Source: a virus. Taken from it: DNA of 64,000 nt. Below are positions 1,884 through 38,154 of this stretch, one piece after another. The stretch lies in IMG/VR virus record IMGVR_UViG_3300037312_000927. One strand, given 5' to 3'. The notes under the pieces were generated by a model, which was not told the origin of the DNA, searched no databases, and saw nothing but the letters and a program-made list of their open reading frames with translations. Position numbers and translations under genes: made by a program. Position 1 is the stretch's first letter. The number at the start of each line of letters is the position of its first letter.

Positions 1884-3812
1884 TTAGATCGAGTTTGTCA
1901 AATACGTACCACTAACGGTTACGTAAAACGTTGACCCGGTTATGTTGCTCGCTGAAAGAGCGTTCAAAGCTGAGCCTGAACCCGTAATCATTAGAGCTAT
2001 ATATGGTGTATTTTGTACAAATGATCCATTAACCTGGGTAAAGCCAGCTGCAGTCCACCCACTAGCCATGGCTGAGCAAACTGCATTCTCCTGACCAGGT
2101 ATCACTGAAGGGGTGAATGGTAGGCCATTTATCCACAGCTGTCCTGCCATAGCAGCATCCTTAGATGCTACATTAATAGTTGCTGTCACGAAAACTTGAT
2201 TACCTTTTCTGGAATAGAAGCCAGTTTGAACACTATAAGTGTTGGATCCTGCTGTGCTAGATCCAGCTAACGTAGGAGTCCACATACCTTCTTCTTGATC
2301 AGAGGGGTTGAGCCCATATACTAAGAAGTTAGCATTTTTTGTTTTAGTAAACACGGCTGTAAACGAAGTTGAAGTTACAGAGGTTACAAAAACTTGTTCC
2401 CCTTGAGTCCCATCATCATTTATGCACCACAGCCTGGTATTCGGCCTAATATTTTCCATAGTAGCCGGGGTCACCGAGACGGTAGTTGGAGATGCGATTG
2501 AATTAGGGCAATACGTTACCGCAGTTTGTCTTACTATATTTTGGCGTAGGGCTATTGAGAAGCCTCCTACAAAAGGCGCTGCCTGTCTATAAGGACCTAT
2601 TACTAATTTACTATTTCCTTCTATGATAACTGAGCTAGCTTTCGAACTTGCACCATTGTTAAACAGGATATTTTGCTGTGCGGCTTGACCAAAAAGATTG
2701 TTTACGATAGAACCGCCTTGACAATCATCGATGACTATATGTGAAGGTAGGGCTAGGTCCGTAATTCCGTTACCAGATATACGAGGAGCAGAGCACGGCC
2801 CTACATACTTTGATAGGGAACCCCGTTGCCCTATCGCAGCAGTGCTATCGGTTAGGTATATCGAGGATGAACTATGGCCCTCTATTTCATTTCCATCTAC
2901 TATTAAACTGCTAACCCCTGCTGCACGGATGGCATAGGAACCCGCATTAAAATTGTTATCACGAATGGAATGACAACCGCCCCCATCATCTACAATATTA
3001 GGTCCAGCTCCAGCAGCCGCGTTAAATTGATTATTTTGAACAGTTATTCTATTAGTGAAACCTGCATTTGCCGATGCCGTATGGTCATCCCCATTGACTA
3101 TCCAAATACCACATTTAGTATAAGATGCTTGTTCGATGTCAGAGTGCGCAATAGTTGCAATCTCAGTTTGATCAAAGACTACTGGATACATAAATCCAGA
3201 AACCATTATCCCATCTAAGTCTACAAAAGTTCCCCCTACGTCTACAAACCCGCAGCCAGTATTAGAAGTATTAGTACATACTATTCCAATATTTCTAACC
3301 CCGTTGTTAGCAGCAGTGCTAGAGTTGATTGGCCAAGTTGACTTAATACCGTCTCCAGAGCTAGAAAAACTTAGGATGGATTTAGTCCTACCGTCACCTT
3401 CCAGTATAGTATCAGATCCTATATTCAAGCTTCCGCTGCAAATATAGGTACCGGGAGGCACGTACACCCGGCCCTTAACGCTTAGTGCAGAGTTTATGGC
3501 GGAGGTATCATCAGTGAAATTATCCCCCATTGACCCAAACCATTTTACATTTACAGCACCATTATACTGTCGTTTCCATCTCTTACCATTGTAAGATACA
3601 ATGACGGTACCCCCATTATCAACGGACGATGTATCCCCATCATCTCTAACGAAATTACCGGCAATGCCAGGTTTCACTACGTAAACAGAGGATTGAGGGC
3701 CTATATATAGACGTAATGCTATATAGTCGGTTAAACGTAGTGTATTAATAAAACTTTCCACAGTATCAGTACCGTGGGATATCATACTGCTTCTGGCTTT
3801 TGTTAGTGACAT
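1884..3812 (-). CDS. Tailspike, beta-helix with C-terminal fibre-type domain
   Basis: DNGGTVIV-NGKRWKR head module, VNVKWFG-GD--TDDTSAIN motif, C-terminal WTPTL-G...YSRKGNQV domain. Confidence 0.85.
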   Translation of the reverse strand: MSLTKARSSMISHGTDTVESFINTLRLTDYIALRLYIGPQSSVYVVKPGIAGNFVRDDGDTSSVDNGGTVIVSYNGKRWKRQYNGAVNVKWFGSMGDNFTDDTSAINSALSVKGRVYVPPGTYICSGSLNIGSDTILEGDGRTKSILSFSSSGDGIKSTWPINSSTAANNGVRNIGIVCTNTSNTGCGFVDVGGTFVDLDGIMVSGFMYPVVFDQTEIATIAHSDIEQASYTKCGIWIVNGDDHTASANAGFTNRITVQNNQFNAAAGAGPNIVDDGGGCHSIRDNNFNAGSYAIRAAGVSSLIVDGNEIEGHSSSSIYLTDSTAAIGQRGSLSKYVGPCSAPRISGNGITDLALPSHIVIDDCQGGSIVNNLFGQAAQQNILFNNGASSKASSVIIEGNSKLVIGPYRQAAPFVGGFSIALRQNIVRQTAVTYCPNSIASPTTVSVTPATMENIRPNTRLWCINDDGTQGEQVFVTSVTSTSFTAVFTKTKNANFLVYGLNPSDQEEGMWTPTLAGSSTAGSNTYSVQTGFYSRKGNQVFVTATINVASKDAAMAGQLWINGLPFTPSVIPGQENAVCSAMASGWTAAGFTQVNGSFVQNTPYIALMITGSGSALNALSASNITGSTFYVTVSGTYLTNSI

Positions 3813-5870: not shown

Positions 5871-8800
5871 TCAAGGCATCTGATAACTGCCAGACGCGTA
5901 AACTGTAAATGCTCCCGTTGGAATTATCAGCTGTGAAGAAGTACCCGTATTAGTATAATATCCCCGGATTGCCCCTAGGCTATTAACCACAAGAGCGGGG
6001 TTTATCAGACCGAAATGGCCACCGGTTGTACTTGAGCCGCTTACCATTAAATCTACCATCGTCTCTGCGTTATTCGTGGAAGACGTAACAGTAGTCGGGA
6101 GTGAAACTTGAATCATACCCGTCCCGGTATGACCAGCACTGACGTCAAGTCTTATTTTAAAGAAAACTGTTTTACCCACTCTTCTATAACGACCATATTG
6201 AAGAGTATATGTCCCAGTGCCATTAGTGGATGAGCCTGTTACAACTGGGTTATAGCTAGTTTCAGTAGAATCGGACTCTTCGGATTGAAACGCACTAGTA
6301 AGATTATTTAGATTACATCTATAAAACTTATTAGTCGAAGGTGTTAATGTATGTGCTGATTCCTTCTGAATAGCCACTAACGTCTTACCGCTTGGTGATG
6401 TAAAATCAACCCCATCAAATGTAACTTTATTTGATGTCCCAGTATTGAAATCTACGGCGTTTGATGCACCGGCAGAACCGGTCCCACAATCTACAAATGC
6501 CCCTCTAAGGATATTAAAGTCATCCACGCTATATATGGACATACCATTACCCTCAGTGGATCCACACCGTATAAAACGATCGTTAAAAATCGTTACATTT
6601 ACGGTTTTCATATATCCGACCGAAGCCCCATACCCTACATCCGTCCAGGTATTATCACTTAGGTCTATACGTTTCCCGCAATATATATTGAAAGGTCTGC
6701 CGGTACTAGACTTAACTTTGTTGCCACTTACTATAACGTCGTTATCGAGGTCCGTAGTTGAGGAACTAACGTTGAAGTCATAAAAGAAAAATGCTCCAGT
6801 ACCAACATATCCTGTAGAGGAGTTATTTTCTATAGTGATATTCGTAGGTTTTGCAGTTACTGCAGCTGGCTGGTAGAACGAAATTTCTCCAGAGCTACCC
6901 CCATTATTATTAAAAGTGTTGTCTCTGATTCTAACGTTTTGGATAACGTGAAATGTGTTTGAATCAGGTTCGAAATCAATAGGACCTGGCATCGTGGATT
7001 TAGAACAGTTGCTGAAATCACAGGCTTCAATAGTAATCCCGTTAATGTCTATTAGACTAATGGCATTTCTATTTTCACGGGTGATACCATCAAATCTGCA
7101 ACGCTTTACGTATACATTCTGATTATGTCTTTCGTCCGTACCCGAGAATCCCGACCCTATATACAAGCCATCTCCACGGAACCCTTTAAAAAGCACATTT
7201 TCGATTAAGACATTGGAGACGCCATTAATAGCTACCAAATGTTTAAATTCTGAAAACCCATCTACATCAGTAGTTGCTCTGAGTTGAAAATTTTTAAGAG
7301 TTATATTTGTAATATTATTAGATATATTACTAGAACCACTATCACAAATAAATCCGTAATTCGCAGTATTAGGCATTTGTATGAGCGTGGTATCCCCATC
7401 ACCAAATATTTCAGTGTTAGACTTCAAGGATACTGAGCTAATAAGGTAAGTGCCTGCTGGTACGTATATCTTTCTAGAAGCAGCAATGGCTCTATTAAAC
7501 ATGGCAGTACTGTCAGTATCGGTGCTTACATAAAAGTAATTTACATTAGCTATACCGTTATACTGGCGTTTCCAACGTTTGCCGTTAGTGGATACGATGA
7601 TAGTACCCCCGTCGTCTACGGAAGTAATATCGGAGTCATCTCTAGTGAAGCTGCCCGAAATGCCTATATTACTAACGTATACAGACGTTCTAGGGCCTAC
7701 GTAATTCCTCAAAGCAGTATAATCTGCAAGTTGCAATGCATTTAACGAATCGGCAACAGTCTCAGTACCATTAGTTACTAGGCTAGCATCAGTGACACCA
7801 ACGGCCGCCGTGGATCTAGACAATACCTCGATAGCGCTCCCTGAAGGAGGGGCTTCACTGAATGTTAAAGTTCTACCGACGATGCTATATGTAGCCTTTT
7901 GCTGATAAGAAGCGTTGATATACACATCGGTAACCATAACTCCGACAGGAGCTTTAGCTAGAGTGAATACCGTCTTAGTACCATCTCCGGTAAAATCGTC
8001 CAAATTCACCGTATTTCTATCCGCACGAATTTGATCTAAAACTGCTTTAACGTTGGTGGGTGTAGTACCATCGTTAGGATTATAAATAGTCGTGGCAGCA
8101 TCCCCTGAACTAAATGGGATTTCATATTTAATGGTGACTTCTATTACAACCCCAGATATAGGGGCTTGGTCAAAAGTGAGAGTAGTACCTGTCGCAGTAT
8201 AAGATGCTTTTTGCTGATATACACCATCGAAATGGACGCTTACAACGGAATTTCCACTCACCGAAACCGGCAATGTATACGATGTCGTAGTACCGTCACC
8301 TACGAAAGTGGCTGCATATTGTGTCGCACGTCTATCTAGCTCTTCCTTTACGGTAGTCTGTGTAGAGCTACCCGCAGGGGTGTAGTTAACCCCCATAGAA
8401 TCCATAGTAGATAATGGAAGTTCTTTACGGATAACTACTTCTATAAGGGTATTATTAAGAGGGGCTTCCCCGAAAGTCAGAACTGTGCCATACGCCGTGT
8501 AGGAGTCTTTTTGTTGATAGGCACCATCAATATATACATCCAAACTATTGGAGGTAGAAACTGCCGTCGGGAGTACAAAGGTAGTAGCAGAGCCAGTCCC
8601 AGAATATCTGGCCACAGTAGCCGTACCACGTTCCTTTTTGAAGGTATCTAATGCGTCCTTTACATTTGAAACAATGAGACCATCGTCCGACAGATATTGT
8701 GTAGTAGCCGCATCAGAGGTACCGATAGGAAGGGCGTAGTTAACCGTTACCTCGATGCTTGCGCCAATACTCGGAGTTGAGTTAAGTGTCAAGCTCGTAC

Positions 8801-28319: not shown

Positions 28320-29972
28320 TTAATTGTATCCTGCGAAATTAGCTATGTCAAATAGGCTATGTTCCGACTTTGTTTCATCTACGGTAGTAAAGTTACCGGC
28401 CACTACCATCTGCGCTATGTTAGCAAATACTATTGAGTGGAACCAATCATCAAGGGCGCCATCATCTTTTCTGTACAGGCGTTTTCCGCTTAGACTTTCT
28501 TCTTCGAATATGCATAAGGCCTCTTGCCACACATCACAAGTAAGATCCCAACACGGGGTCTCTAATTTAGTTCTACCTATCTTAGCCTTAAGCATCATTG
28601 TATCCATAGCTTGAGTCCGGTCTGCGGCGTAGTAACCCCCTATCTTGTCCCATCGTAAAGTGTTCTTTGCACTTACGTAATTTACCATTGCTACTTTCTC
28701 ATCTCCGATGTGACTTTTGAACAATTGCCCTTGAAGAACACCGACTCCACGATCTGAGCCAATCATAGAACATTCAAACTGGTGATACAGTTGCTCTACC
28801 CTGGCGACCTGTTCAAGTATGTCTATGCCGTCCATGCGTTGTGAATATAACAGGTAGGCTTTACCAGCGTAGTCATAACCCAGAACGCTTACATTAGTGT
28901 AACTATTCGTTGATCCAGAGACACTCCAATCCACTCCAATGGTGGTCATGTAAATACCTCGACTATCTCTTGGAAAACCCTTATCCCATTCACGCTTCTC
29001 GGGATTACAACAGGCCATGGCCTCCCGGATGGATAGAATTCTACCACCTACCCCTGAAGGTAAGCCGAAGACCTCATTAGCGACTTTCTGTGCAGAGTAG
29101 GCTCCAGGTGCACCGATGTTACACTTTTCTCTAAGCTCTCTCCACTTTTTGGGTTTATTACGAGCGGGGAATATCAGCTGAGGTAGATGGAATCCGAAAT
29201 GATATTTCTCGGAGGGTTTTCCTGCAACCCACTGCCCCGTGGACATATTTAAAACTTTACCGCAGTATAGGCACCCTGGACCGTCGGGATTTTGAATCAT
29301 CTTCATGCAAGAGTCAAAATCTATGGGAATATTATATTTTCCACAGTGAGAACATTTAACAACCCACTCCAATTGATTACTGGCCTTAAAGAGAATGTTC
29401 AGGGTATTATTCTCTGTCTTAGCAGTTCCGGTATGTCGTATGAACCCATAATCAGAGGCGCCCATAGTTTCATGAATAATAGGGATGGCCTCAATGCTGA
29501 TATCCTGGCACTCATCGTAGAAGTTCTGATCGCTTGCAACCCCCCGGATACGGTCGGCGTCCTGTTCAGTTTGTGCGTACCCTAAGATTATACGTGCGCC
29601 TGTATTCAATGTTTTCTCGAATACATTTTTCTTATCTCTAGCACTAACGTAGTGTTTTTTAACAATAGGGGACTCAAAAAATGCATCCAGATATGCCGAA
29701 GAAAACCGTGAAGTTTGCTGTGCCAAAGGACTTATAAATAAGCTGACGAAGTGAGGCCTTAATATGCCATTTACTACTAACATGCCAGCCAATCCTACTG
29801 ATTTCCCGATTTGACGACCAGCAGAAATTGTAAGTTTAGGAGGGCTACAGTCATATATGAGTTTGAACGGGGCATATTCATCTAGATTAAGTGGCTTTCC
29901 TTTAAGCTGTAAAATTGCTACAGCCAACTCACTAGGTAAGAGTTTTAATGGTTGTTTTTTATCATTACTCAT
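28320..29972 (-). CDS. terL: Terminase large subunit (lambda gpA-like)
   Basis: Walker A SAGRQIGKS, IRG...YDECQD Walker B, CxxC...CxxC insert, RNase H-like IGVDW and DDWFHS. Confidence 0.9.
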   Translation of the reverse strand: MSNDKKQPLKLLPSELAVAILQLKGKPLNLDEYAPFKLIYDCSPPKLTISAGRQIGKSVGLAGMLVVNGILRPHFVSLFISPLAQQTSRFSSAYLDAFFESPIVKKHYVSARDKKNVFEKTLNTGARIILGYAQTEQDADRIRGVASDQNFYDECQDISIEAIPIIHETMGASDYGFIRHTGTAKTENNTLNILFKASNQLEWVVKCSHCGKYNIPIDFDSCMKMIQNPDGPGCLYCGKVLNMSTGQWVAGKPSEKYHFGFHLPQLIFPARNKPKKWRELREKCNIGAPGAYSAQKVANEVFGLPSGVGGRILSIREAMACCNPEKREWDKGFPRDSRGIYMTTIGVDWSVSGSTNSYTNVSVLGYDYAGKAYLLYSQRMDGIDILEQVARVEQLYHQFECSMIGSDRGVGVLQGQLFKSHIGDEKVAMVNYVSAKNTLRWDKIGGYYAADRTQAMDTMMLKAKIGRTKLETPCWDLTCDVWQEALCIFEEESLSGKRLYRKDDGALDDWFHSIVFANIAQMVVAGNFTTVDETKSEHSLFDIANFAGYN

Positions 29973-31104
29973 TTAAGTATTCTAATCTATATTTATTTCT
30001 AAACACTTTCGTAGGGTTTCTGAGCAACCGGTGGATACTAGGTCTAGAAATATCTAAAAACTCCCCGCAATCCTTTACCTTATCAAAAATCTTAGAAACT
30101 CCAGTGATTATGTCTACGACTCTAACTTTACTGCAGTTAGAATCCGTAATATACGGTTTAAATTCAGTCCCGTCGTCGTATTTCCAAAACATTCCTTTAG
30201 ATTTATTAGTACCCTTCCTACACTTTAGAGCGTCAATAATGCACGAGTAAGGATATCCTTGAGATTCAAGGAGGCTTAAATAATTGCCTGTGTAACGCTC
30301 TAAAACATCTCCCTTTTCGTTCAACCTCAATACTGGTTTAGTCCTAACTTTATTCAGAGGGGCGCCTGGGAAAGAACCTACTAACGAAAATATACGTTTT
30401 TTAACAGTGAAATATTTACGATTCAGATGTCTCGTAAACATCTTCATAGTTACTGACAGCTCGTTGAGTAAGGTGTTTAAATCTTTATGTTCATTAACCC
30501 TGTTACCTAAAAGATCCCACTCGTAAATAGTATAATTCTTAGAAAACCAGAATCTAATCCAAGATGCATCCGATGGCGTAAAGTCTTCTTTTAGAATATC
30601 CTCATTTTTTCCGGAAAATCTAACCTTGAAATCTGTTAGGGTTCGCTCAAAGTTCATGCAATTATATGTAATGGTTTGACCATCTATACATAAATTCTCA
30701 GAGGCCTCTTTAACTGAACTATAGGACTTGATCAATTTCCCTTCATTAGAATAAACATAAATAGCATCCGTAGCCTCTACAGTACTTTCTACAAACTTTG
30801 CCAAATTATACCGATAGCCCCCGCTATCAATCATCTCCTGTTCGAGGATCCTACTCTCGGCTTCAGTCTCTGTAACTTTATAAGTTATTGAGAAATTATC
30901 CGCACCATGCTTCTTAAAACTGTGTAACAGAAGTTTGTTACAATGATCCCCGGATCTAAGCTGTGCGGCATGAGCGATCAATCTCTTGTAAATGTTCTTG
31001 GAACTACCTACGTATTTGTCCCCGGTAACGTTGTTAATAATTTCATAAACACCACACTGTTTAGGGGCGTCTTTATAATTTTTATATTCAAGTACTCTAT
31101 CCAT
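29965..31104 (-). mobile_element. Free-standing GIY-YIG homing endonuclease with NUMOD1-like repeats
   Basis: CGVYEIIN---GDKYVGSS-NI-KR---H; repeated IY-Y---G--I--Y-S--EA units; AT-rich. Confidence 0.88.
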
Positions 31105-31859: not shown

Positions 31860-32348
31860 ATGACTGAAGAAGAAGTACGTAGCGTTTTCACCCTCGCAGG
31901 TATCAATGTCGTCAAGCTGTGGAAAACTGATAACCAATATCAGGGAAGTTCGTACCGGACCAACCCTGACATTCCACCGTGGTGGCTAGTGCAGACGACG
32001 GTCGGCATTGTCGTAATCGGTTGGCGTAGCCGTGTTATCGAAATAGATTGGTCCGATACCGACATCTATTTCAACGATGAAAAGCCGATCACCAAAGACG
32101 AGGTGACCAAGACCAATACCTACGTCCACGCCTATGGTCTTACTAAAGCGGTCGAGTACCTCACGGCCCTTCGGAAGGAATTTTCCTCAGTGAGTCCTTA
32201 TACTTATAGAGGTGAACGGCCTGAGGTAAAGCACGCAATATTTACCATGCGTGGGCTAGGACGACAGGCTCGTTTGAAAGTGATGCGTGAATTCTGCCAG
32301 GTCTGCGGAGAATACAAAGCAGAGCACGGTGAAATGTGCATTGAGTAA
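31860..32348 (+). CDS. Conserved-looking phage hypothetical protein
   Basis: WWLV-T--G---IGWR-RVI-IDW motif; ATG 31860 has AAGGA SD. Confidence 0.65.
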   Translation: MTEEEVRSVFTLAGINVVKLWKTDNQYQGSSYRTNPDIPPWWLVQTTVGIVVIGWRSRVIEIDWSDTDIYFNDEKPITKDEVTKTNTYVHAYGLTKAVEYLTALRKEFSSVSPYTYRGERPEVKHAIFTMRGLGRQARLKVMREFCQVCGEYKAEHGEMCIE

Positions 32349-32404
32349 TTCAAAGGTCCCTGATTCATTTCGGGGATTTTTTAGTTCAATAACTCAACTG
32401 TATT

Positions 32405-32412
32405 TGGTATAA
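32405..32412 (+). promoter_or_regulatory. Early promoter TGGTATAA
   Basis: Recurrent motif. Confidence 0.7.
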
Positions 32413-32441
32413 GAAAAGTATCTAAACATATTGAGGTTTTC

Positions 32442-32684
32442 ATGGCTACGACTGTTAATGGTGTTACTTACATCCCCTTCCGTATCTTCGTTAGTGGTAC
32501 CCAACACGAAATCTGGTTATCCGAAGCCACCCACGGGAGGGATCTAAGTTCTTGGTTTAGCGGAGATTACCCTCTGAGTGGATATCACATTGAACCGAAC
32601 GGCAGGCATACTCAGTTAGGTTATCGTATCACCTTGGGTAGGCACGTCGGTGCCTCAGCAGTCGTGTATTACCCTGAGGATTAA
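32442..32684 (+). CDS. Hypothetical protein
   Basis: GAGG SD. Confidence 0.65.
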   Translation: MATTVNGVTYIPFRIFVSGTQHEIWLSEATHGRDLSSWFSGDYPLSGYHIEPNGRHTQLGYRITLGRHVGASAVVYYPED

Positions 32685-32752
32685 CCCTCAATAACTACTG
32701 GTTAATTCTAGTAGTTTTTTAGCCATGAAAAATTCAATATTTTAGAGATCTT

Positions 32753-32760
32753 TGGTATAA
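32753..32760 (+). promoter_or_regulatory. Early promoter TGGTATAA of Ubl cassette
   Basis: Recurrent motif. Confidence 0.7.
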
Positions 32761-32845
32761 CAATATTGTAAGGGAATGCATATATTATGCTGACTCTTAC
32801 ACCCATCTTTTTACTAGTAAAACTTTAGCTAAGGAAACTAACCAT

Positions 32846-33271
32846 ATGACTACCGTCGCTCAAACCGTCCTGATCGTTACCTCGACCGACTCCGAATACA
32901 CCGTCCCGGGCGACATGACCGCTGCTCAGCTGGTCACCGCTTACTCGTCGCAGATCCCGGGCCTGTCGAGCATGACCTCGACCGAGCGCTATGAACAACG
33001 TGCCATCGGCCAAGTCCGCATCGTCACGTTCAGCCCCCGCACGGGCACCAAGGGTTCGACAGGTCCGGTTGCTCAGACCGTCCTGATCGTCACGTCGACG
33101 GACTCGGAATACACGGTTCCGGGCGATATGACGGCTGCCCAACTGGTGACGGCTTATTCGAGCCAGATCCCGGGCCTGTCGAGCATGACCTCGACCGAGC
33201 GTTATGAACAGCGTTCGATCGGCCAGGTCCGTATCGTCACCTTCAGCCCCCGCACGGGCACCAAAGGCTAA
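32846..33271 (+). CDS. Tandem di-ubiquitin-like protein (PRTRC protein C / Prok-Ub-like)
   Basis: Two 67-aa near-identical units each ending PRTGTKG; core MTAAQLVTAYSSQIPGL resembles PRTRC-C; adjacent E2, JAB, E1. Confidence 0.85.
   Translation: MTTVAQTVLIVTSTDSEYTVPGDMTAAQLVTAYSSQIPGLSSMTSTERYEQRAIGQVRIVTFSPRTGTKGSTGPVAQTVLIVTSTDSEYTVPGDMTAAQLVTAYSSQIPGLSSMTSTERYEQRSIGQVRIVTFSPRTGTKG
32855..33268 (+). repeat. 201-nt tandem duplication (32855-33055 / 33068-33268)
   Basis: About 23 synonymous and 1 non-synonymous codon differences by manual alignment. Confidence 0.9.
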
Positions 33272-33287
33272 TCAGCCTTAAGTAGTG

Positions 33288-33320
33288 AAACAGCCAGGTT
33301 TCAACTTGGCTGTTTTTTTT
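33288..33320 (+). terminator. Intrinsic terminator after Ubl gene
   Basis: AAACAGCCAGG...CTTGGCTGTTT + T-tract. Confidence 0.75.
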
Positions 33321-33345
33321 AGTTAACGTAACTTAGGGGAACACT

Positions 33346-34251
33346 ATGCAGAAAACACGAAGAGTGAACATCCTCAGTGGACTGACTCGTATCGTGGGTG
33401 AGATCCAGGCAGGCGTGAATAAGAAGTTTCAAGACTTCTATTTGAAATGTCTGCTTCAGCTCGGTTTGGTGACAAAGACGTTTAGCTATGATTTTGTGAT
33501 AGGGAATAATGGTTCCAGCTCCCATCGTAGATCGTTGAACAAACTCACCGGTCTCATTACAAAACAACTTCTGAAACTGAACCCGGCCGCAAACTTCGTG
33601 ACAGGGTCGTTTATTGATGGTAAACCCTCTGATCAATTTAAGATCAGTATCGGTGATACGGGATGGGTAAAGGATTACCCGTCATGGCGTCATGATAAGT
33701 TCGAGAAAATGAAGGCGAAGTTTCCGGAACTGTATGGTGACGCTCAAATAAACCATTTGTCTCTCGTTCACGGAACTTCCTTCGTAGAAATGTGGGCTCG
33801 TCTGAGCGACAAGTTCGGATGGGCGTATCGTTACTGCTCGTATCTAAACTATATGCTCAGAAAGCATTCAATCCCCCTACAAGCCAGTGTAGTGATCTCA
33901 GCGGATTCTGACTCTACCACGGACGAAAACGGGGTCAGGGTGCATCTATATAAACTCAATGCAACTATCATCTTCACTACAATGCAGTGGAGATGCAGGG
34001 ATTCCGACTCGGTAGCTCGGTATCGAGAAGTGCTCAACGGTGCGGAAGATGATTCACTTTTCTCAAATGATAACCTCTGGACTTCGGTTAATTTGCCCAA
34101 CAGCATTCGCCCAGGTTCGAGCAATTTCATCTATCGGAAGTTCCACATCAGTAAGGTGTTCATGCACCTGGATAAATCCCTGAAGATTTTGGAAACCTTA
34201 CTTAGGAAGGCAGATTATGGTGTTGGAGCATATACTCTCAGAGCTGAATAA
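33346..34251 (+). CDS. Uncharacterised protein inside Ubl cassette
   Basis: 301 aa, AGGGG SD; no motif recognised. Confidence 0.7.
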   Translation: MQKTRRVNILSGLTRIVGEIQAGVNKKFQDFYLKCLLQLGLVTKTFSYDFVIGNNGSSSHRRSLNKLTGLITKQLLKLNPAANFVTGSFIDGKPSDQFKISIGDTGWVKDYPSWRHDKFEKMKAKFPELYGDAQINHLSLVHGTSFVEMWARLSDKFGWAYRYCSYLNYMLRKHSIPLQASVVISADSDSTTDENGVRVHLYKLNATIIFTTMQWRCRDSDSVARYREVLNGAEDDSLFSNDNLWTSVNLPNSIRPGSSNFIYRKFHISKVFMHLDKSLKILETLLRKADYGVGAYTLRAE

Positions 34252-34480
34252 TTCGGTTTCCATCTCGGAACCTTATGAAAAGCTGTACAATCGGCACATC
34301 GCATTGGGACCCATTGTGGACGAGGAAAGCCTCGATGACCTAATCGATTTTGCCTGTGAGGCCCTGAATTTTAAAGGGTCAGATAATCTCCCCATTGTTG
34401 ATCTGAAGCTCATTGGGGTTCAGATCAAAGTTGCAAGAACTTTCATTAACACTGATTCTGAAGAGGACTTTTTCATATGA
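34217..34480 (+). CDS. Small acidic protein inside Ubl cassette
   Basis: AGGAAGG SD; ATGA-coupled to E2. Confidence 0.6.
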   Translation: MVLEHILSELNNSVSISEPYEKLYNRHIALGPIVDEESLDDLIDFACEALNFKGSDNLPIVDLKLIGVQIKVARTFINTDSEEDFFI

Positions 34481-35337
34481 ACGAAACCGAAACTATGGAA
34501 GCAGTTCAGCTTACCCCAATCGTCCAGGAAACTGAACCGGCAGCCGCTCCAGCAGTCCCGACTTTCGAACAAGCCGTGGAGGCTCAAGCCGGAGGTGCCT
34601 CTACGGTCGATGTTCTGAAACTGGAACTATTCAAAGACTACGCTGAAATCGACATGGGCAACAAGATCAAGAAGCAGATCTCCCATGAGACGCTACGAGA
34701 CATACTGAACAAAACCCTGAACACGGCTCAGCCCCAATCGGAAACGATTAAAGGTATGCTGATGCCGAGTAATGTGTTCTTCATGAGTCAGACGGCTAAC
34801 CGCCTCCATTTCAATACGTATTATTCCGGTGGTAAACGTAATATGTTGTACGGTGAACGCAAGATGGAAATCATGGCGCCGAACATCATCATCTCGTTTA
34901 CCCTCCGTAAGGATGGTTCGGACTGGATCATCGATTCTGAAGCTACGAAATACTTCTGTACCGATCTTCCGCTGAACAAACTGCCGAAGGACTTCATCAA
35001 CCAGATCAGTCATAAAGATGGTATCTATCTTCTTCCGATGAGTAACACCTATGACGAAGGTAAGATGTGCTACGGCAGTAACTCGATGCCTGCACGTTTT
35101 AAGGATAACAACTTCCGTGGCCTGGACTGGTATTTCCGCTATCTGTGGGAGACGCCGTTCAACAGCGATCTGGGCATTCGTGCGGTAGGTTCGATCGGAG
35201 TCAGTGATTGGTACGATCTTCTGGCTCGTACGGCTAAGGATAATAAGACCTTCCCGTACCGTGATCTGCGTGGCTGGAGAGAGATTGATGGTGCCATCCC
35301 TAGCACCTCAGAACTCGGCCGTGGCCGTGATCGCTAA
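34477..35337 (+). CDS. Prokaryotic E2-like conjugating enzyme (PRTRC protein B / E2 family D-like)
   Basis: LPMSNTYDEGKMCYG with candidate catalytic Cys, followed by LWETPFNSDL. Confidence 0.8.
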   Translation: MNETETMEAVQLTPIVQETEPAAAPAVPTFEQAVEAQAGGASTVDVLKLELFKDYAEIDMGNKIKKQISHETLRDILNKTLNTAQPQSETIKGMLMPSNVFFMSQTANRLHFNTYYSGGKRNMLYGERKMEIMAPNIIISFTLRKDGSDWIIDSEATKYFCTDLPLNKLPKDFINQISHKDGIYLLPMSNTYDEGKMCYGSNSMPARFKDNNFRGLDWYFRYLWETPFNSDLGIRAVGSIGVSDWYDLLARTAKDNKTFPYRDLRGWREIDGAIPSTSELGRGRDR

Positions 35338-35419: not shown

Positions 35420-36745
35420 ATGCACATTTTAGCACCTTCGATGAGCTGCATCTGCTTCCCTGGCGAAGTGCAAGACGCTATGGCACAAGGTTACAAACAA
35501 ATCTACGTTGCCACGACGCAAGGCATCTTCAAACATCACATCCTTCGTGGCGAGGGTCGCTATGTCCGTGTGAAGGTCGATAAAATCCCGGGCTACGAAG
35601 AGCCGAAGATCGAAGAAGCCATGAACTTCCTGCCGGCTGGTAAGGTCCCGTACGAACTGTACGAGCAAATTCTGGCCTTCTTCAAGAAAGTCATGGAAGT
35701 GAACACCTCGGAAGTCGAGGCAATGATTCACGTGCTGTACAATCCTGAGCAAGGTTATCACCTGGGCGTTCCTCCTCAGAAAATCAGCAAGGCAAGCGTA
35801 AGCTATGACTGGAACTACGTTCCGGCTGGCACGAGTATCGTGGTTGACATTCACAGCCACAATACGATGGGAGCCTTCTTCAGCGGCACCGACAACCGTG
35901 ACGATGCCCACAACATTTCGTACTCGGGTGTCTTCGGGAAGCTGAAAGATGCGGAACCTATGACTGTGTGGCGTTTCAACTACATGGACAAGAAATACGA
36001 GGCGAAAGCGTCCGATATTTTTGATACTCCCGCACGACCGGAAGTAGAGGTTCCTAAAGAATGGCTGGACAACGTTAAAGTGGAATCGTATCAATCCCAC
36101 TATAACGGAGGTTACAGTAACCGGGGAAACGTCGGAAAGTGGCAGGGTCACTCCGTGAGTGGTCCGAGCAATACTACCCTGACGAAGAACTCGTTACCAC
36201 AGGCAAAAAACGTAAGCCAAACCGTAAACAACAACGGAAAGGTAAATGAGGCTGTTTATTATCCCGGTCAAGATGAACTCGGGCTGGAAGGAGGTGGGTT
36301 CAACAGCTGGTCTGACGACGAGCTCGAAGACTACTTTCGTAACATTGGCCGGCGCGGTGTTTCTCATGCGTATGGAGTTAACGAAGCTCGGGGTATCATT
36401 CTTCCCGACGATGTTCCCGATCCGAATACTACCGTAACGGAAGATCCGGAGGCTGACACCTTGGGAAAGTCGAAGGGGGAGGGAGTGACCCCAAACAGCA
36501 TCATCTCCACTGATCCTGCTTACCTTGCCACGGCTGTCAAGTATGGTACTGACGTTGCTGATGCCTGGTATGATATCGGCAATTTGATGTGCAACCTCGA
36601 AGGTAAAGATGAACTTCTTAGTGAACTGATCCAAGATATGTTCGGTTTGACTTCCCCTTCCGAGCAACTCAAGGTTCTGCACTTGATGTACGATAACATG
36701 GATCCGGCCAGCCGGGAGAAGTTGGAAACCCAAGGGTTTGCTTAA
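35420..36745 (+). CDS. JAB/JAMM metallopeptidase (PRTRC protein A-like) with acidic C-terminal extension
   Basis: EVEAMIHV plus HSHNTMGAFFSGTD = E...HxHx7Sx2D JAMM motif. Confidence 0.88.
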   Translation: MHILAPSMSCICFPGEVQDAMAQGYKQIYVATTQGIFKHHILRGEGRYVRVKVDKIPGYEEPKIEEAMNFLPAGKVPYELYEQILAFFKKVMEVNTSEVEAMIHVLYNPEQGYHLGVPPQKISKASVSYDWNYVPAGTSIVVDIHSHNTMGAFFSGTDNRDDAHNISYSGVFGKLKDAEPMTVWRFNYMDKKYEAKASDIFDTPARPEVEVPKEWLDNVKVESYQSHYNGGYSNRGNVGKWQGHSVSGPSNTTLTKNSLPQAKNVSQTVNNNGKVNEAVYYPGQDELGLEGGGFNSWSDDELEDYFRNIGRRGVSHAYGVNEARGIILPDDVPDPNTTVTEDPEADTLGKSKGEGVTPNSIISTDPAYLATAVKYGTDVADAWYDIGNLMCNLEGKDELLSELIQDMFGLTSPSEQLKVLHLMYDNMDPASREKLETQGFA

Positions 36746-36795: not shown

Positions 36796-38154
36796 ATGTT
36801 TAGCTTTACCTCTAGCATAATTCCGAATAACGTCTTCGTTATCGGTGCGGGTGGAACAGGTGGTCGCTTGATCCCCTTGCTCAGCCAGTTCATGCGAAGC
36901 ATTACTCGTGGGGTGAGCCCTATGGGTTGGCTGGAATCTCCTAGAATCTGGCTGATCGATGACGACGTTGTGGAGCAGAAGAACTTGCTTCGTCAAAACT
37001 TCATTGACCGTGACGTCGGCAAGTACAAGGCTGCAGTTCTGGCCGAACGTTACACTCGGGCTTACAACGTTCCGGTGATCCCGATCATTCGTCGTATCGA
37101 AACGGGTTCGGCCCAAGAGTTCTACAAAGATGTGAACGACAACCTGTTCGTCATGAACGGTAACATCGACACGGTGAAGTTTAACAACATCATCGGCAGC
37201 AGTGTCGTCATCATCTGCGTCGACTCGGTCGAAGCACGTCGAGATATCCTGAACGTGTTTGTCACCGGCGATCAGCCTAATAAGACTATCTTCATCGATG
37301 CTGGTAACGAAGATAGTTTCGGCCAGGTGAGTTTCTTCACCTCATCGATTCTGCTTAGCCACAAGACGACCAGTGCAGCCCAGGAAATTCCGAAGCTGTG
37401 TCCGGTGTCAGCTGACGTTGATTTCATCCCGATCGACGTGGACTACTACCGGGGCCTGGTGGACACGCCGGCTCAAGGTAGCTGTGCGGATCTGAATCAA
37501 ACCCTGGCGATCAATGCTATCATGGCAACGACGATTATGGGCGTGGTGCAGAACTGCTTCTACCGTAAGCCTATGACCTATAACAAGGTCAGTATCAGTC
37601 TGGACGGGGGTAATCACACGACGTACAACACGTTCAACAATCTCAACAATGCCGGCATCTCTAAAGAGACCTGGCATAATGGGCGTAACGGGAGTCTGTA
37701 TTCCGAAGAACGTGAAGGTCGTCGGAAGTGTCTGGGGTTCGTCGGTCGAGCTCAGACACACGAGGCACGTGATCTGCGACAGACTCTTCTGGATAAGATG
37801 GAAGAGATCAATCGTCAGGCTGAACTGGCACGCCGTAAGGCTGCTGAGGAAGCTGAACGGGCAGCAGAGCAAGCTCGTATCAAGATCGTTGCCGATCGTA
37901 AGCGTGAAGAGATCCGTCGTATGGTAGAGGCGGCTCGTCAAGCACGGGAGACTCCGGTTGCCCCGACCTTGGCTGATGCAGTAGCGGTTGTGGCTAGTGC
38001 GGCAAGTGTTGTTGAGGTCCCGGCAGCTCCTCCTCCGCTGACTCCGGTTCGTCAACGTACCCGCCGAGTTGTAGAACTTGCTTTACCTCCCGCTGATGCA
38101 TATGTGGAGGGTGACGAGGACGACAACGAAGTGGATGAAGACGATCCTTATTAA
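36796..38154 (+). CDS. ThiF/E1-like activating enzyme (PRTRC ThiF-like) with coiled-coil/acidic tail
   Basis: VIGAGGTGG, IDDDVVEQKNLLRQNF, DVGKYKA, ICVDS--AR, IDAGN, GSCA-LNQTLAIN. Confidence 0.9.
   Translation: MFSFTSSIIPNNVFVIGAGGTGGRLIPLLSQFMRSITRGVSPMGWLESPRIWLIDDDVVEQKNLLRQNFIDRDVGKYKAAVLAERYTRAYNVPVIPIIRRIETGSAQEFYKDVNDNLFVMNGNIDTVKFNNIIGSSVVIICVDSVEARRDILNVFVTGDQPNKTIFIDAGNEDSFGQVSFFTSSILLSHKTTSAAQEIPKLCPVSADVDFIPIDVDYYRGLVDTPAQGSCADLNQTLAINAIMATTIMGVVQNCFYRKPMTYNKVSISLDGGNHTTYNTFNNLNNAGISKETWHNGRNGSLYSEEREGRRKCLGFVGRAQTHEARDLRQTLLDKMEEINRQAELARRKAAEEAERAAEQARIKIVADRKREEIRRMVEAARQARETPVAPTLADAVAVVASAASVVEVPAAPPPLTPVRQRTRRVVELALPPADAYVEGDEDDNEVDEDDPY

What the first reader, a model, noticed from the sequence alone, without database searches (positions are those of the whole stretch)
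32846..33320. Polyubiquitin-like head-to-tail di-Ubl precursor under strong purifying selection
Seen: two 67-codon units differ at about 23 synonymous codons but only one amino acid (A/S). They are joined as GTKG|STGP and share a 38-nt identical central block. The gene has its own promoter and an immediate terminator. Inference: like eukaryotic polyubiquitin, it doubles Ubl output and needs JAB cleavage after the internal KG. Alternatively it is conjugated as an uncleaved dimer. The synonymous divergence shows an old, maintained duplication rather than an assembly artefact.
Basis: partly seen in the sequence, partly recalled or inferred. Interest (0 to 1): 0.8.

Follow-up and report, generated by a model that had tools for sequence, protein, structure and literature searches.

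The report
Phage polyubiquitin-like tandem tag gene
A 185-kb phage encodes its ubiquitin-like tag as two head-to-tail copies in one gene, as eukaryotes do with polyubiquitin. The two copies stay identical as protein although their DNA has drifted almost as far apart as synonymous codons allow.

Summary
Window 32846-33271 encodes 141 aa made of two units of 70 and 71 aa. Each unit ends RTGTKG, and the junction reads GTKG|STGP. Over 67 aligned codons there are 23 synonymous codon differences and one amino-acid difference (A/S). There is a 38-nt identical block, which is not beyond chance (P=0.06).

The gene has a conserved extended -10 promoter and an immediate terminator. Its GC3 is 0.77 against 0.28-0.62 for other ORFs. 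It heads a conserved phage cassette: Ubl, 301-aa protein, 87-aa protein, E2 (Prok-E2_D), JAB, ThiF E1.

The family (Pfam Prok_Ub relatives with a G-x-K-G tail) has 1 to 5 head-to-tail units. Linkers vary, and residues often follow the last Gly as a cap. This supports the polyubiquitin-like precursor reading (about 0.7). Cleavage is inferred, not shown.

New here: amino-acid changes between related phages always occur in both units (6/6, 14/14, 15/15). Synonymous changes hit the units independently.

Cultured relatives exist: Vibrio phage D69 (three units) and Salmonella phage Arash (one unit, mis-annotated).

This scan has noted phage Ubl cassettes on other DNA before. I found no paper describing this family.

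The parts
32692..32720 (+). Terminator-like hairpin plus T-run that closes the upstream 80-aa ORF, so the Ubl gene is insulated from upstream transcription
   Evidence: Read directly from the sequence: stem AACTACT/AGTAGTT followed by a T-run. The scan tool did not score it.
32733..32761 (+). Promoter: -35-like TTCAAT, 17-nt spacer, extended -10 TGG-TATAAC
   Evidence: TGGTATAA is enriched: 17 copies against 3.1 expected, 14 on the + strand. The element is invariant in an alignment of 8 diverged loci.
32831..32835 (+). Shine-Dalgarno-like AAGGA, 10 nt before the ATG
   Evidence: Sequence
32846..33271 (+). Di-Ubl gene, 141 aa plus stop
   Evidence: AF2 model has pLDDT 89 with two beta-beta-alpha-beta-beta units.
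32846..33055 (+). Unit 1 (aa 1-70), ends RTGTKG
33038..33067 (+). Internal tail RTGTKG plus linker STGP; the proposed JAB cleavage site lies between G70 and S71 (33055|33056)
   Evidence: The tail T-G-T-K-G is invariant in 31 homologues at both positions. pLDDT dips here, to 72-80. Cleavage is inferred.
33056..33268 (+). Unit 2 (aa 71-141), ends RTGTKG directly before the stop codon, with no cap residue
32951..32988 (+). 38-nt block identical to 33164-33201
   Evidence: permutation P=0.06
33287..33320 (+). Intrinsic terminator, 13-pair stem plus T-run
   Evidence: The same arrangement is present in relatives.
33346..34251 (+). Conserved 301-aa protein of unknown family, in the second slot of the cassette
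   Evidence: No Pfam, PHROG, PADLOC or Atlas match. The slot is conserved in L002, L003, L006, L007, L008, L001 and L034.
34217..34480 (+). Conserved 87-aa protein, overlapping the start of the E2 gene
34477..35337 (+). E2-like protein with invariant Cys198
   Evidence: Pfam Prok-E2_D E=4e-6. C198, N190 and Y192 are invariant in 7 homologues.
35420..36745 (+). JAB/JAMM metallopeptidase with an intact E...HxH-x7-S-x2-D motif
   Evidence: Pfam Prok-JAB E=2e-8. H145, H147, S155 and D158 are invariant.
36796..38154 (+). ThiF-type E1 with a GxGGxG loop and invariant Cys230
   Evidence: Pfam ThiF E=8e-12. Invariant residues are listed.

Best explanation
The gene is a polyubiquitin-like precursor of the phage's own ubiquitin-like tag. 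A conserved sigma-70-type extended -10 promoter and an immediate terminator make it a separate, probably very highly expressed, one-gene transcript. Translation gives two compact beta-grasp units joined head to tail. The cassette's JAB metallopeptidase is proposed to cut after Gly70, the internal ...TGTKG, releasing two near-identical tags of about 70 aa that each have a free C-terminal Gly. The ThiF-type E1 then adenylates that Gly and the Cys-bearing E2-like protein passes the tag to targets that are still unknown. Packing 2 units (1 to 5 across the family) into one reading frame multiplies the tag relative to its enzymes. Shown here: the anatomy, the conservation, the variation in unit number, the caps and the evolutionary pattern. 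Inferred: cleavage, conjugation and the dosage purpose.
For: 1. Cassette. Ubl, E2 (Prok-E2_D), JAB and ThiF E1 have intact catalytic residues, and the order is conserved in 10 or more loci.
2. Family. 18 of 31 homologues match Pfam Prok_Ub. A single-unit profile reaches the five-unit P0096 at E=1e-9, and P0096 matches Prok_Ub at E=1e-29 in 5 stretches.
3. Fold. The AF2 model has pLDDT 89 and two beta-beta-alpha-beta-beta units. Its best structural matches are GB1 and protein L, MoaD, ubiquitin, and linear di-ubiquitin/ISG15.
4. Internal tail. T-G-T-K-G is invariant at both positions in 31 proteins.
5. Copy number. It runs from 1 to 5: of 72 G[TAV]KG-tailed representatives, 45 have one unit, 12 two, 8 three, 3 four and 4 five. 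Single-, double-, triple- and quintuple-unit genes sit in the same slot.
6. Caps. 22 of 72 carry residues after the last Gly (N, I, A, ILA, IFLF, a 14-aa tail, a 134-aa domain), and internal P1' is mostly A, S or N.
7. Identical units. They are 64/64 identical in L002, L005, L006 and L009-14 while pS is 0.47-0.67. That is statistically the same as a random reshuffle of the gene's own codons in L006 and L009/L011 but below it in L005, with the window at 21 against 26 +/- 3.
8. Coupled change. Amino-acid changes between related phages are in both units (6/6, 14/14, 15/15; P from 1e-8 to 1e-15), whereas synonymous changes are independent. This is what is expected if both units give the same mature product.
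9. Precedent. BilC cuts BilA-GFP after the conserved Gly (PMC10557695), and BubCD cuts the BubAB fusion after its Gly (PMC11601596).
10. Expression signals. The promoter and terminator are conserved, and GC3 is 0.77 against 0.28-0.62 for 39 other ORFs.
Against: No biochemical or proteomic evidence of cleavage or conjugation exists for any member. The window protein itself does not reach any Pfam threshold. Structural Z-scores are modest (5.0-5.6) and are shared with GB1-type domains, so the fold alone does not prove a Ubl. The window gene has no C-terminal cap. Single-unit relatives without caps keep the JAB, so the JAB's presence does not by itself imply precursor processing; it could serve only in deconjugation. 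Type I Bil Ubls have two beta-grasp domains and act uncleaved (PMC11601603). In one subclade (P0025-P0030, L007, L021) the units are only 73-86% identical and group by position, so identity is not universal.
Confidence: 0.7

Rival explanations
1. Uncleaved di-domain tag, like ISG15, FAT10 or type I BilA. The 141-aa protein is activated only at Gly141 and attached as a two-domain unit. The JAB serves only to remove conjugates or caps.
For: Two-domain Ubls that are not cleaved are the rule in type I Bil operons, and Ubl2/Ubl3 forms exist in Bub (PMC11601603). The AF2 model gives one compact body with pTM 0.75. The nearest Foldseek hits include ISG15 and FAT10. The window gene ends exactly at Gly and needs no trimming.
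Against: In such proteins only the last domain needs the tail and the two domains diverge. Here the internal unit keeps the full invariant tail in 31 of 31 proteins, and the units are 94-100% identical in the window's clade with coupled amino-acid change. Unit number varies from 1 to 5 in one slot, with linkers of 1 to about 40 aa. That is hard to reconcile with a fixed multi-domain architecture.
Confidence: 0.2
2. The tandem beta-grasp protein is not a conjugated tag. It might be a sulfur carrier of the ThiS/MoaD type, activated by the ThiF enzyme. Or it might be an abundant decoy or inhibitor aimed at host ubiquitin-like defences such as Bil.
For: The E1 is ThiF-like and MoaD is among the structural neighbours. 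Very high expression would suit a stoichiometric decoy. No target is known.
Against: A conserved E2-like protein with an invariant Cys and a JAB accompany it in every locus. No sulfur-transfer genes (rhodanese, cysteine desulfurase) were seen in the cassette. Caps and multi-unit precursors make sense for a tag that needs a free Gly.
Confidence: 0.07
3. The repeat is a recent duplication or an assembly artefact without function.
For: None beyond the fact that tandem repeats can be produced by misassembly.
Against: There are 23 synonymous differences against one amino-acid difference. The same protein lies on 9 contigs. The two-unit form is present in more than 30 diverged homologues from JGI, ENA, NCBI and Logan assemblies. 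Orthologous units in related phages share unit-specific codons.
Confidence: 0.01

Closest known systems
Eukaryotic polyubiquitin genes (UBB, UBC, UBI4)
   Same: Head-to-tail units of one tag in a single reading frame. Each unit ends in the conjugation tail. Unit number varies between genomes. Relatives often have extra residue(s) after the last Gly. Units are identical as protein yet differ synonymously. A peptidase is presumed to release the monomers.
   Different: The sequence family is unrelated: a compact four-stranded beta-grasp of about 65 aa with a G-x-K-G tail instead of RGG. Short variable linkers lie between units. The gene is encoded by a phage next to its own E1, E2 and JAB. The tag sequence evolves fast between phages (45-95% identity), and the two units change together at the amino-acid level without DNA homogenisation.
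Bil (BilABCD) bacterial ISG15-like anti-phage systems (Chambers et al., PMC10557695; Hor et al. 2024, cited from that literature)
   Same: The same four activities: Ubl, E2, JAB, E1. BilC has been shown to pre-process BilA by cutting after the conserved Gly, even in a BilA-GFP fusion.
   Different: The system is phage-encoded, not a host defence island. No PADLOC model matches the Ubl, E2 or JAB. Two extra conserved proteins (about 300 aa and about 87 aa) lie between Ubl and E2. Type I BilA has two diverged domains and is not known to be cut between them.
Bub operons (type 6E; Ye et al., PMC11601596; Gong et al., PMC11601603)
   Same: The Ubl is made as a pre-protein (a BubA-BubB fusion) and released by a JAB domain cutting after Gly. 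Bub Ubls have 1-3 beta-grasp domains.
   Different: Bub multi-domain Ubls act as whole proteins (Ubl3 filaments). Their internal domains lack the conjugation tail. Bub E1 and E2 use Ser/oxyester chemistry, whereas here Cys is invariant in both. There is no DUF6527 protease here.
Pfam PF14454 Prok_Ub with PF14460 Prok-E2_D
   Same: Homologues of the window protein and the five-unit P0096 match Prok_Ub. The cassette's E2 matches Prok-E2_D above the gathering score.
   Different: The window protein itself scores below every Pfam threshold. I found no paper that describes tandem Prok_Ub units or their presence in phages.
Lambda-type tail assembly Ubl (TAPI) with a JAB-NlpC protein (Iyer et al. 2006, PMC1779556)
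   Same: A phage-encoded beta-grasp domain with a C-terminal Gly, predicted to be released by a JAB peptidase.
   Different: Lambda has no E1 or E2 and no tandem identical units, and its genes sit in the tail module. Here there is a full conjugation cassette under early-type promoters.

Membership tests
Pfam Prok_Ub (PF14454) | Match to the family HMM at or above the gathering score (25 bits) | tested here: inconclusive
   The window protein has no match at E<=0.1. Of its 31 homologues, 18 match (best E=2e-8). The single-unit profile finds P0096 (E=1e-9), which matches PF14454 at 102 bits in 5 stretches. Membership is therefore by transitive profile links.
Pfam Prok_Ub (PF14454) | Neighbourhood with E1, E2 and JAB genes | tested here: met
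   Prok-E2_D, Prok-JAB and ThiF lie downstream on the same strand. The order is conserved in relatives.
Ubiquitin-like beta-grasp modifiers | Beta-grasp fold | tested here: met
   AF2 model with pLDDT 89; each unit is beta-beta-alpha-beta-beta. VIA Z 5.2 (rmsd 2.7, 60 aligned) to the Ubl TINCR, 5.0 to MoaD, and 5.6 (rmsd 2.1, 51 aligned) to GB1. It is a minimal four-stranded version, and the Z values are modest.
Ubiquitin-like beta-grasp modifiers | Flexible C-terminal tail ending in Gly that is activated by E1 and conjugated | not testable with these tools
   The tail ...RTGTKG is present and invariant. Activation and conjugation need biochemistry.
Polyubiquitin-type precursor | Two or more head-to-tail units, each with the complete conjugation tail | tested here: met
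   Two units here; 2-5 units in 27 of 72 G[TAV]KG-tailed representatives.
Polyubiquitin-type precursor | Extra residue(s) after the last Gly that must be removed | tested here: not met
   The window gene stops directly after Gly141. Caps do occur in 22 of 72 relatives.
Polyubiquitin-type precursor | Proteolytic release of monomers | not testable with these tools
   Only comparative support and precedent from BilC and BubCD.
ISG15/FAT10/type I BilA di-domain Ubl | Two diverged beta-grasp domains, with the conjugation tail only on the last one | tested here: not met
   The units are 66/70 identical overall and 63/64 in the core, and both carry the full tail.
BilABCD defence system | Match to the models used to detect defence systems | tested here: inconclusive
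   PADLOC v2 gave no match for Ubl, E2 or JAB, and only weak E1-E2 (CBASS Cap2-type) matches for the E1. I did not verify which Bil models PADLOC holds.
BilABCD defence system | Encoded by the host as an anti-phage island | tested here: not met
   The window lies in a 184,920-base virus record that CheckV rates 100% complete, between the terminase and structural genes.

The most novel reading that the evidence does not exclude
Phage poly-Ubl genes are an independent, convergent invention of the polyubiquitin gene plan. In them selection, not DNA homogenisation, keeps the repeat units identical. When the tag changes between phages (presumably co-evolving with its own E1, E2, JAB or targets), the same amino-acid replacement is fixed in every unit, while synonymous sites stay randomised and evolve independently. 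This would be protein-level concerted evolution by parallel substitution or by very-short-patch repair filtered by selection.
Probability: 0.45. Interest if true: 0.85.

Novelty: new variant of a known kind. Interest (0 to 1): 0.72.

Why it matters
Ubiquitin-like conjugation in bacteria has so far been studied as a host defence against phages (Bil, type II CBASS, Bub). Here the phage carries the whole kit and makes the tag from a polyubiquitin-style multi-unit gene. That gene plan has been regarded as a hallmark of eukaryotes. This offers three things:
- A natural test of whether JAB peptidases process head-to-tail Ubl chains.
- A tractable case of how repeat units are kept identical while the protein evolves fast. 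Eukaryotic ubiquitin is too conserved to show this.
- Cultured entry points for finding what a phage tags during infection: Salmonella phage Arash and Vibrio phage D69.

The tail ...R-T-G-x-K-G also predicts the remnant to look for on targets. Trypsin should leave a single Gly. Cleavage after Arg should leave a TGTKG remnant.

Tried and rejected
**Complex prediction**
- The job with JAB (residues 1-235), the di-Ubl and Zn gave no verdict: score 0.27 against a mark of 0.34. This is no evidence either way.
I sent only the window's own proteins afterwards.

**Ideas tested and dropped**
- The 38-nt identical block as a gene-conversion tract: permutation P=0.06, and no gene had a significantly long identical run.
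- Active avoidance of the same codon between units (anti-correlated codon choice): observed differences equal or fall below the shuffle expectation in all 11 genes.
- GC-biased conversion between repeats as the cause of the high GC3: single-unit genes show the same GC3 excess, +0.13 to +0.31.
- Codon identity between units is not significantly higher at amino-acid sites that changed in parallel (Fisher p 0.07-1.0). So there is no positive evidence for conversion tracts there either.

**Searches that found nothing**
- Megablast against phages.
- PHROGs for all cassette proteins.
- PDB sequence search with the unit profile.
- Rfam on 32300-33500, which gave only a sub-threshold SorY match over the terminator.
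- ESM Atlas for the 301-aa neighbour.
- The single-protein scan of IMG/VR. The alignment-based scan worked.

**Steps that could not be run**
- Burroughs et al. 2011, the source of the Pfam families, is not held.
- Literature searches found no description of phage or tandem Prok_Ub.

Full report
**1. What is in the sequence**

Window 32846-33271 (+) is a 141-aa ORF. It consists of two units, aa 1-70 and 71-141. Each ends RTGTKG, and they are joined as GTKG|STGP.

A DNA alignment of the halves is 92% identical per column. Over 67 alignable codons, 23 differ synonymously and one differs in amino acid (A54/S125).

The 38-nt identical block (32951-32988 = 33164-33201) exists. A run that long arises in 6% of codon-column shuffles, so it carries no weight.

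Nei-Gojobori values are pS 0.42 and pN 0.025 for the 64-codon core. With the linker, dS is 0.69, dN is 0.054 and dN/dS is 0.08. The pN value is inflated by a Ser TCG/AGC family switch. Only one residue really differs.

The window lies in a 184,920-base virus record rated complete. That record holds only these two units.

**2. Transcription signals**

Upstream lies TTCAAT-17 nt-TATAAC preceded by TGG (32733-32761), a sigma-70-type extended -10 promoter. The core TGGTATAA occurs 17 times in the window, 14 on the + strand, against 3.1 +/- 1.9 in shuffles. It sits before most + strand genes. The element is invariant in an alignment of the upstream regions of eight diverged loci.

A 13-pair hairpin plus T-run starts 16 nt after the stop. 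Every relative inspected has the same arrangement. A hairpin plus T-run also closes the preceding ORF (32692-32720).

Its GC3 is 0.77, against 0.28-0.62 for 39 other ORFs of the window. Ubl genes of relatives, single-unit ones included, share a GC3 excess of +0.05 to +0.32. The three- and five-unit genes L001 and L031 are the exception, 0.09 below their neighbours. I read this as codon selection in a very highly expressed gene. That is an inference.

**3. Context**

Downstream on the same strand are:
- a 301-aa protein and an 87-aa protein without any family match;
- an E2-like protein (Pfam Prok-E2_D, E=4e-6);
- a JAB/JAMM peptidase (E=2e-8);
- a ThiF-type E1 (E=8e-12).

Catalytic residues are invariant among homologues. 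The JAB keeps H145, H147, S155 and D158. The E2 keeps C198. The E1 keeps the GxGGxG loop and C230.

The order 'terminase (opposite strand), Ubl, ~300 aa, ~87 aa, E2, JAB, E1' recurs in contigs of about 180 kb from several sources. It also recurs, more distantly, in three places:
- Vibrio phages D69, D181 and D148;
- Salmonella phage Arash;
- the contigs that carry five-unit genes.

PADLOC and PHROGs have no models that match.

**4. What the protein is**

The window protein itself reaches no Pfam threshold. However, 18 of its 31 homologues match Prok_Ub. A profile of single units finds 117 cluster representatives. One is P0096, which matches Prok_Ub at E=1e-29 in five stretches.

AlphaFold2 with the family alignment gives pLDDT 89 and two beta-beta-alpha-beta-beta units, with a softer junction and tail.

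Structure comparison gives only modest scores:
- VIA Z 5.0-5.6 to GB1 and protein L, MoaD, ubiquitin and a ubiquitin-like protein;
- Foldseek E of about 2e-3 to linear di-ubiquitin and ISG15.

So the fold is a minimal beta-grasp. The Ubl assignment rests on the profile links and the cassette, not on the fold match alone. No solved structure is a sequence relative.

**5. Copy number and caps**

The family tail is G-x-K-G: GTKG, GNKG, GSKG and others. Among the 72 representatives with G[TAV]KG, 45 have one unit, 12 two, 8 three, 3 four and 4 five.

Examples:
- P0096 has five near-identical units and ends ...GTKG-N.
- P0111 ends ...GTKG-IFLF.
- P0109 ends ...GTKG-I.
- Vibrio phage D69 has three units with linkers of about 20-40 aa and the cap INYSK.
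- P0093 has one unit followed by a 134-aa domain.
- L016 has one unit with a 17-aa tail.

In all, 22 of 72 carry residues after the last Gly. The residue after an internal Gly is A (28), S (8) or N (6) in most cases.

Single-, double-, triple- and quintuple-unit genes occupy the same slot of the cassette. A peptidase step that exposes Gly is therefore built into the family, and head-to-tail units are one of several precursor forms.

JAB peptidases of Bil and Bub have been shown to cut exactly such fusions after the conserved Gly (PMC10557695; PMC11601596).

**6. Evolution of the units**

A maximum-likelihood tree of 69 units groups them by protein, not by position. The labels u1/u2 need 28 changes, no fewer than shuffled labels.

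Within the window's clade the units are 94-100% identical in protein while proteins differ by 25-55%. Yet synonymous sites are close to random. Over the 64-codon core, pS between the aa-identical units is 0.47-0.67 in L002, L005, L006 and L009-L014. In the five-unit L029 gene, units 2-4 are 54-55/55 identical with pS 0.70-0.81.

The number of differing codons equals that obtained by shuffling the gene's own codons among positions of the same amino acid:
- L006: 33 against 33.7.
- L009: 29 against 30.3.
- L029: 265 against 267.
- The window is slightly less diverged: 21 against 26 +/- 3.

**7. Coupled amino-acid change**

Between related phages, units at the same position are closer at synonymous sites than units at different positions. 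L005/L006 give 0.48 and 0.62 against 0.70 and 0.68. L002/L006 give 0.67 and 0.47 against 0.84 and 0.81. L009/L011 give 0.21 and 0.19 against 0.64 and 0.60. Bootstrap support is 1.00 in each case. So the DNA duplicates predate those splits.

Since then, every amino-acid change is found in both units with the same residue:
- 6/6 for L005-L006;
- 14/14 for L002-L006;
- 15/15 for L002-L005;
- overlap P from 1e-8 to 1e-15.

Synonymous changes fall on the two units independently. Shared columns are 9 against 9.8 expected, 12 against 9.2, and 2 against 1.4.

In several cases the unit-specific third base survives the replacement:
- ACG/ACC (Thr) to TCG/TCC (Ser) between L009 and L023;
- CCC/CCT (Pro) to TCC/TCT (Ser) between L002 and L006;
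- ACT/ACC (Thr) to GTT/GTC (Val) between L002 and L006.

Long-tract gene conversion does not explain this. Parallel fixation under selection would. So would very-short-patch repair between the units, filtered by selection. L005 does show some residual homogenisation (22 against 31 expected, P=0.002).

One subclade (P0025-P0030, L007, L021) has units only 73-86% identical that group by position. So the constraint is strong but not universal.

**8. Reading**

All of this is what one expects if every unit yields the same mature tag, which must fit one set of E1, E2, JAB and targets. It is not what one expects of an ISG15-like two-domain protein. There the N-terminal domain needs no tail and is free to diverge.

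The dosage argument fits three things: the separate strong transcription unit, the codon bias, and the 1-5 unit range. It remains inference.

The targets are unknown. The extended -10 promoter type, shared with the other + strand genes and absent from the structural operons on the - strand, suggests expression by host polymerase early or in mid-infection. That too is inference.

**9. Cultured relatives and a mis-annotation**

Salmonella phage Arash (OQ632216.1) has terminase 48% identical and JAB 38% identical to the window's.

Its Ubl is a 66-aa ORF ending RTGTKG (L034:107-307). GenBank instead annotates the overlapping frame 102-320 as gp251c.

The E2-slot and E1 genes are annotated 'structural protein' from an LC-MS/MS 'structural proteome'. 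That proteome also contains RNA polymerase and ribonucleotide reductases (PMC10585845). This shows expression, not virion membership. Because the true Ubl ORF was missing from the database, the tag could not have been found.

**10. Novelty**

Iyer et al. (2006, PMC1779556) noted tandem Ub-like domains 'reminiscent of poly-ubiquitin' in other bacterial operons. Those are now known as Bub Ubl2/Ubl3 proteins that act whole (PMC11601603).

I found no paper on tandem Prok_Ub units, on this G-x-K-G family, or on phage-encoded cassettes of this type. The paper that defined the Pfam families is not held.

Earlier notes of this scan report phage Ubl cassettes on other genomes, some with tandem tags. 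I did not test those.

I class the finding as a new variant of a known kind: a ubiquitin-like conjugation system with JAB pre-processing, made from a polyubiquitin-type multi-unit gene, with an unusual mode of concerted evolution.

Noticed in passing
L034:102-320 (Salmonella phage Arash OQ632216.1, record 180500-180718): GenBank gp251c is called in the wrong frame and gives a hydrophobic nonsense product. The overlapping ORF L034:107-307 encodes a 66-aa single-unit Ubl ending RTGTKG, at the head of an E2-slot/JAB/ThiF cassette.
   Followed up: yes
window, + strand: 31174, 31570, 32405, 32753, 35354, 42246, 45423, 46377, 47702, 48773, 49194, 56220, 57622, 58715: TGGTATAA (extended -10) marks 14 + strand promoters, against about 3 expected on both strands. 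The structural operons on the - strand mostly lack it (3 copies), which suggests two transcription classes.
   Followed up: partly
5' UTRs: L002:~5905-5935, L006:~3715-3745, L015:~5900-5925; window 32776-32845: The Ubl leader of about 85 nt holds a short hairpin. In L002, L006 and L015 the hairpin has the same loop, AATAGCCG. It is followed by a conserved T-run plus AGCTAA just before the ribosome site. In the window the hairpin is GCATA-TAT-TATGC. Function is unknown. Rfam has no match.
   Followed up: partly
window 32846-33271 and Ubl genes of L003, L007, L009, L015-L018, L021, L024-L026: The Ubl gene is a GC3 outlier relative to its own phage (+0.05 to +0.35), in single-unit genes as well. 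L001 and L031 are exceptions. This looks like codon selection for high expression, and the host is unknown.
   Followed up: partly
window 32948-32953 versus 33161-33166: The two units encode the same Ser with codons from different families (TCG against AGC). That switch needs two or three base changes, an independent sign of long separate DNA histories.
   Followed up: no
window 29965-31104 (-): A GIY-YIG homing endonuclease gene abuts the terminase gene. It is present at the same place in the P0002 contig but absent in L002, L003, L006 and L007, so it is a mobile insertion.
   Followed up: no
L031:10854-11378: An HNH endonuclease gene is inserted between the JAB and E1 genes of a five-unit cassette.
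   Followed up: no
P0093 (199 aa), P0099 (78 aa): These are single Ubl units fused to a 134-aa helical C-terminal region or a 14-aa hydrophobic tail after the G-x-K-G motif. They may be natural Ubl-cargo fusions that need processing.
   Followed up: no
window 37750-38154 (C-terminal ~130 aa of the E1): The E1 ends in a long Ala/Glu/Arg-rich, probably helical or disordered, extension followed by an acidic tail. The length of this region varies widely among homologues (293-520 aa proteins).
   Followed up: no
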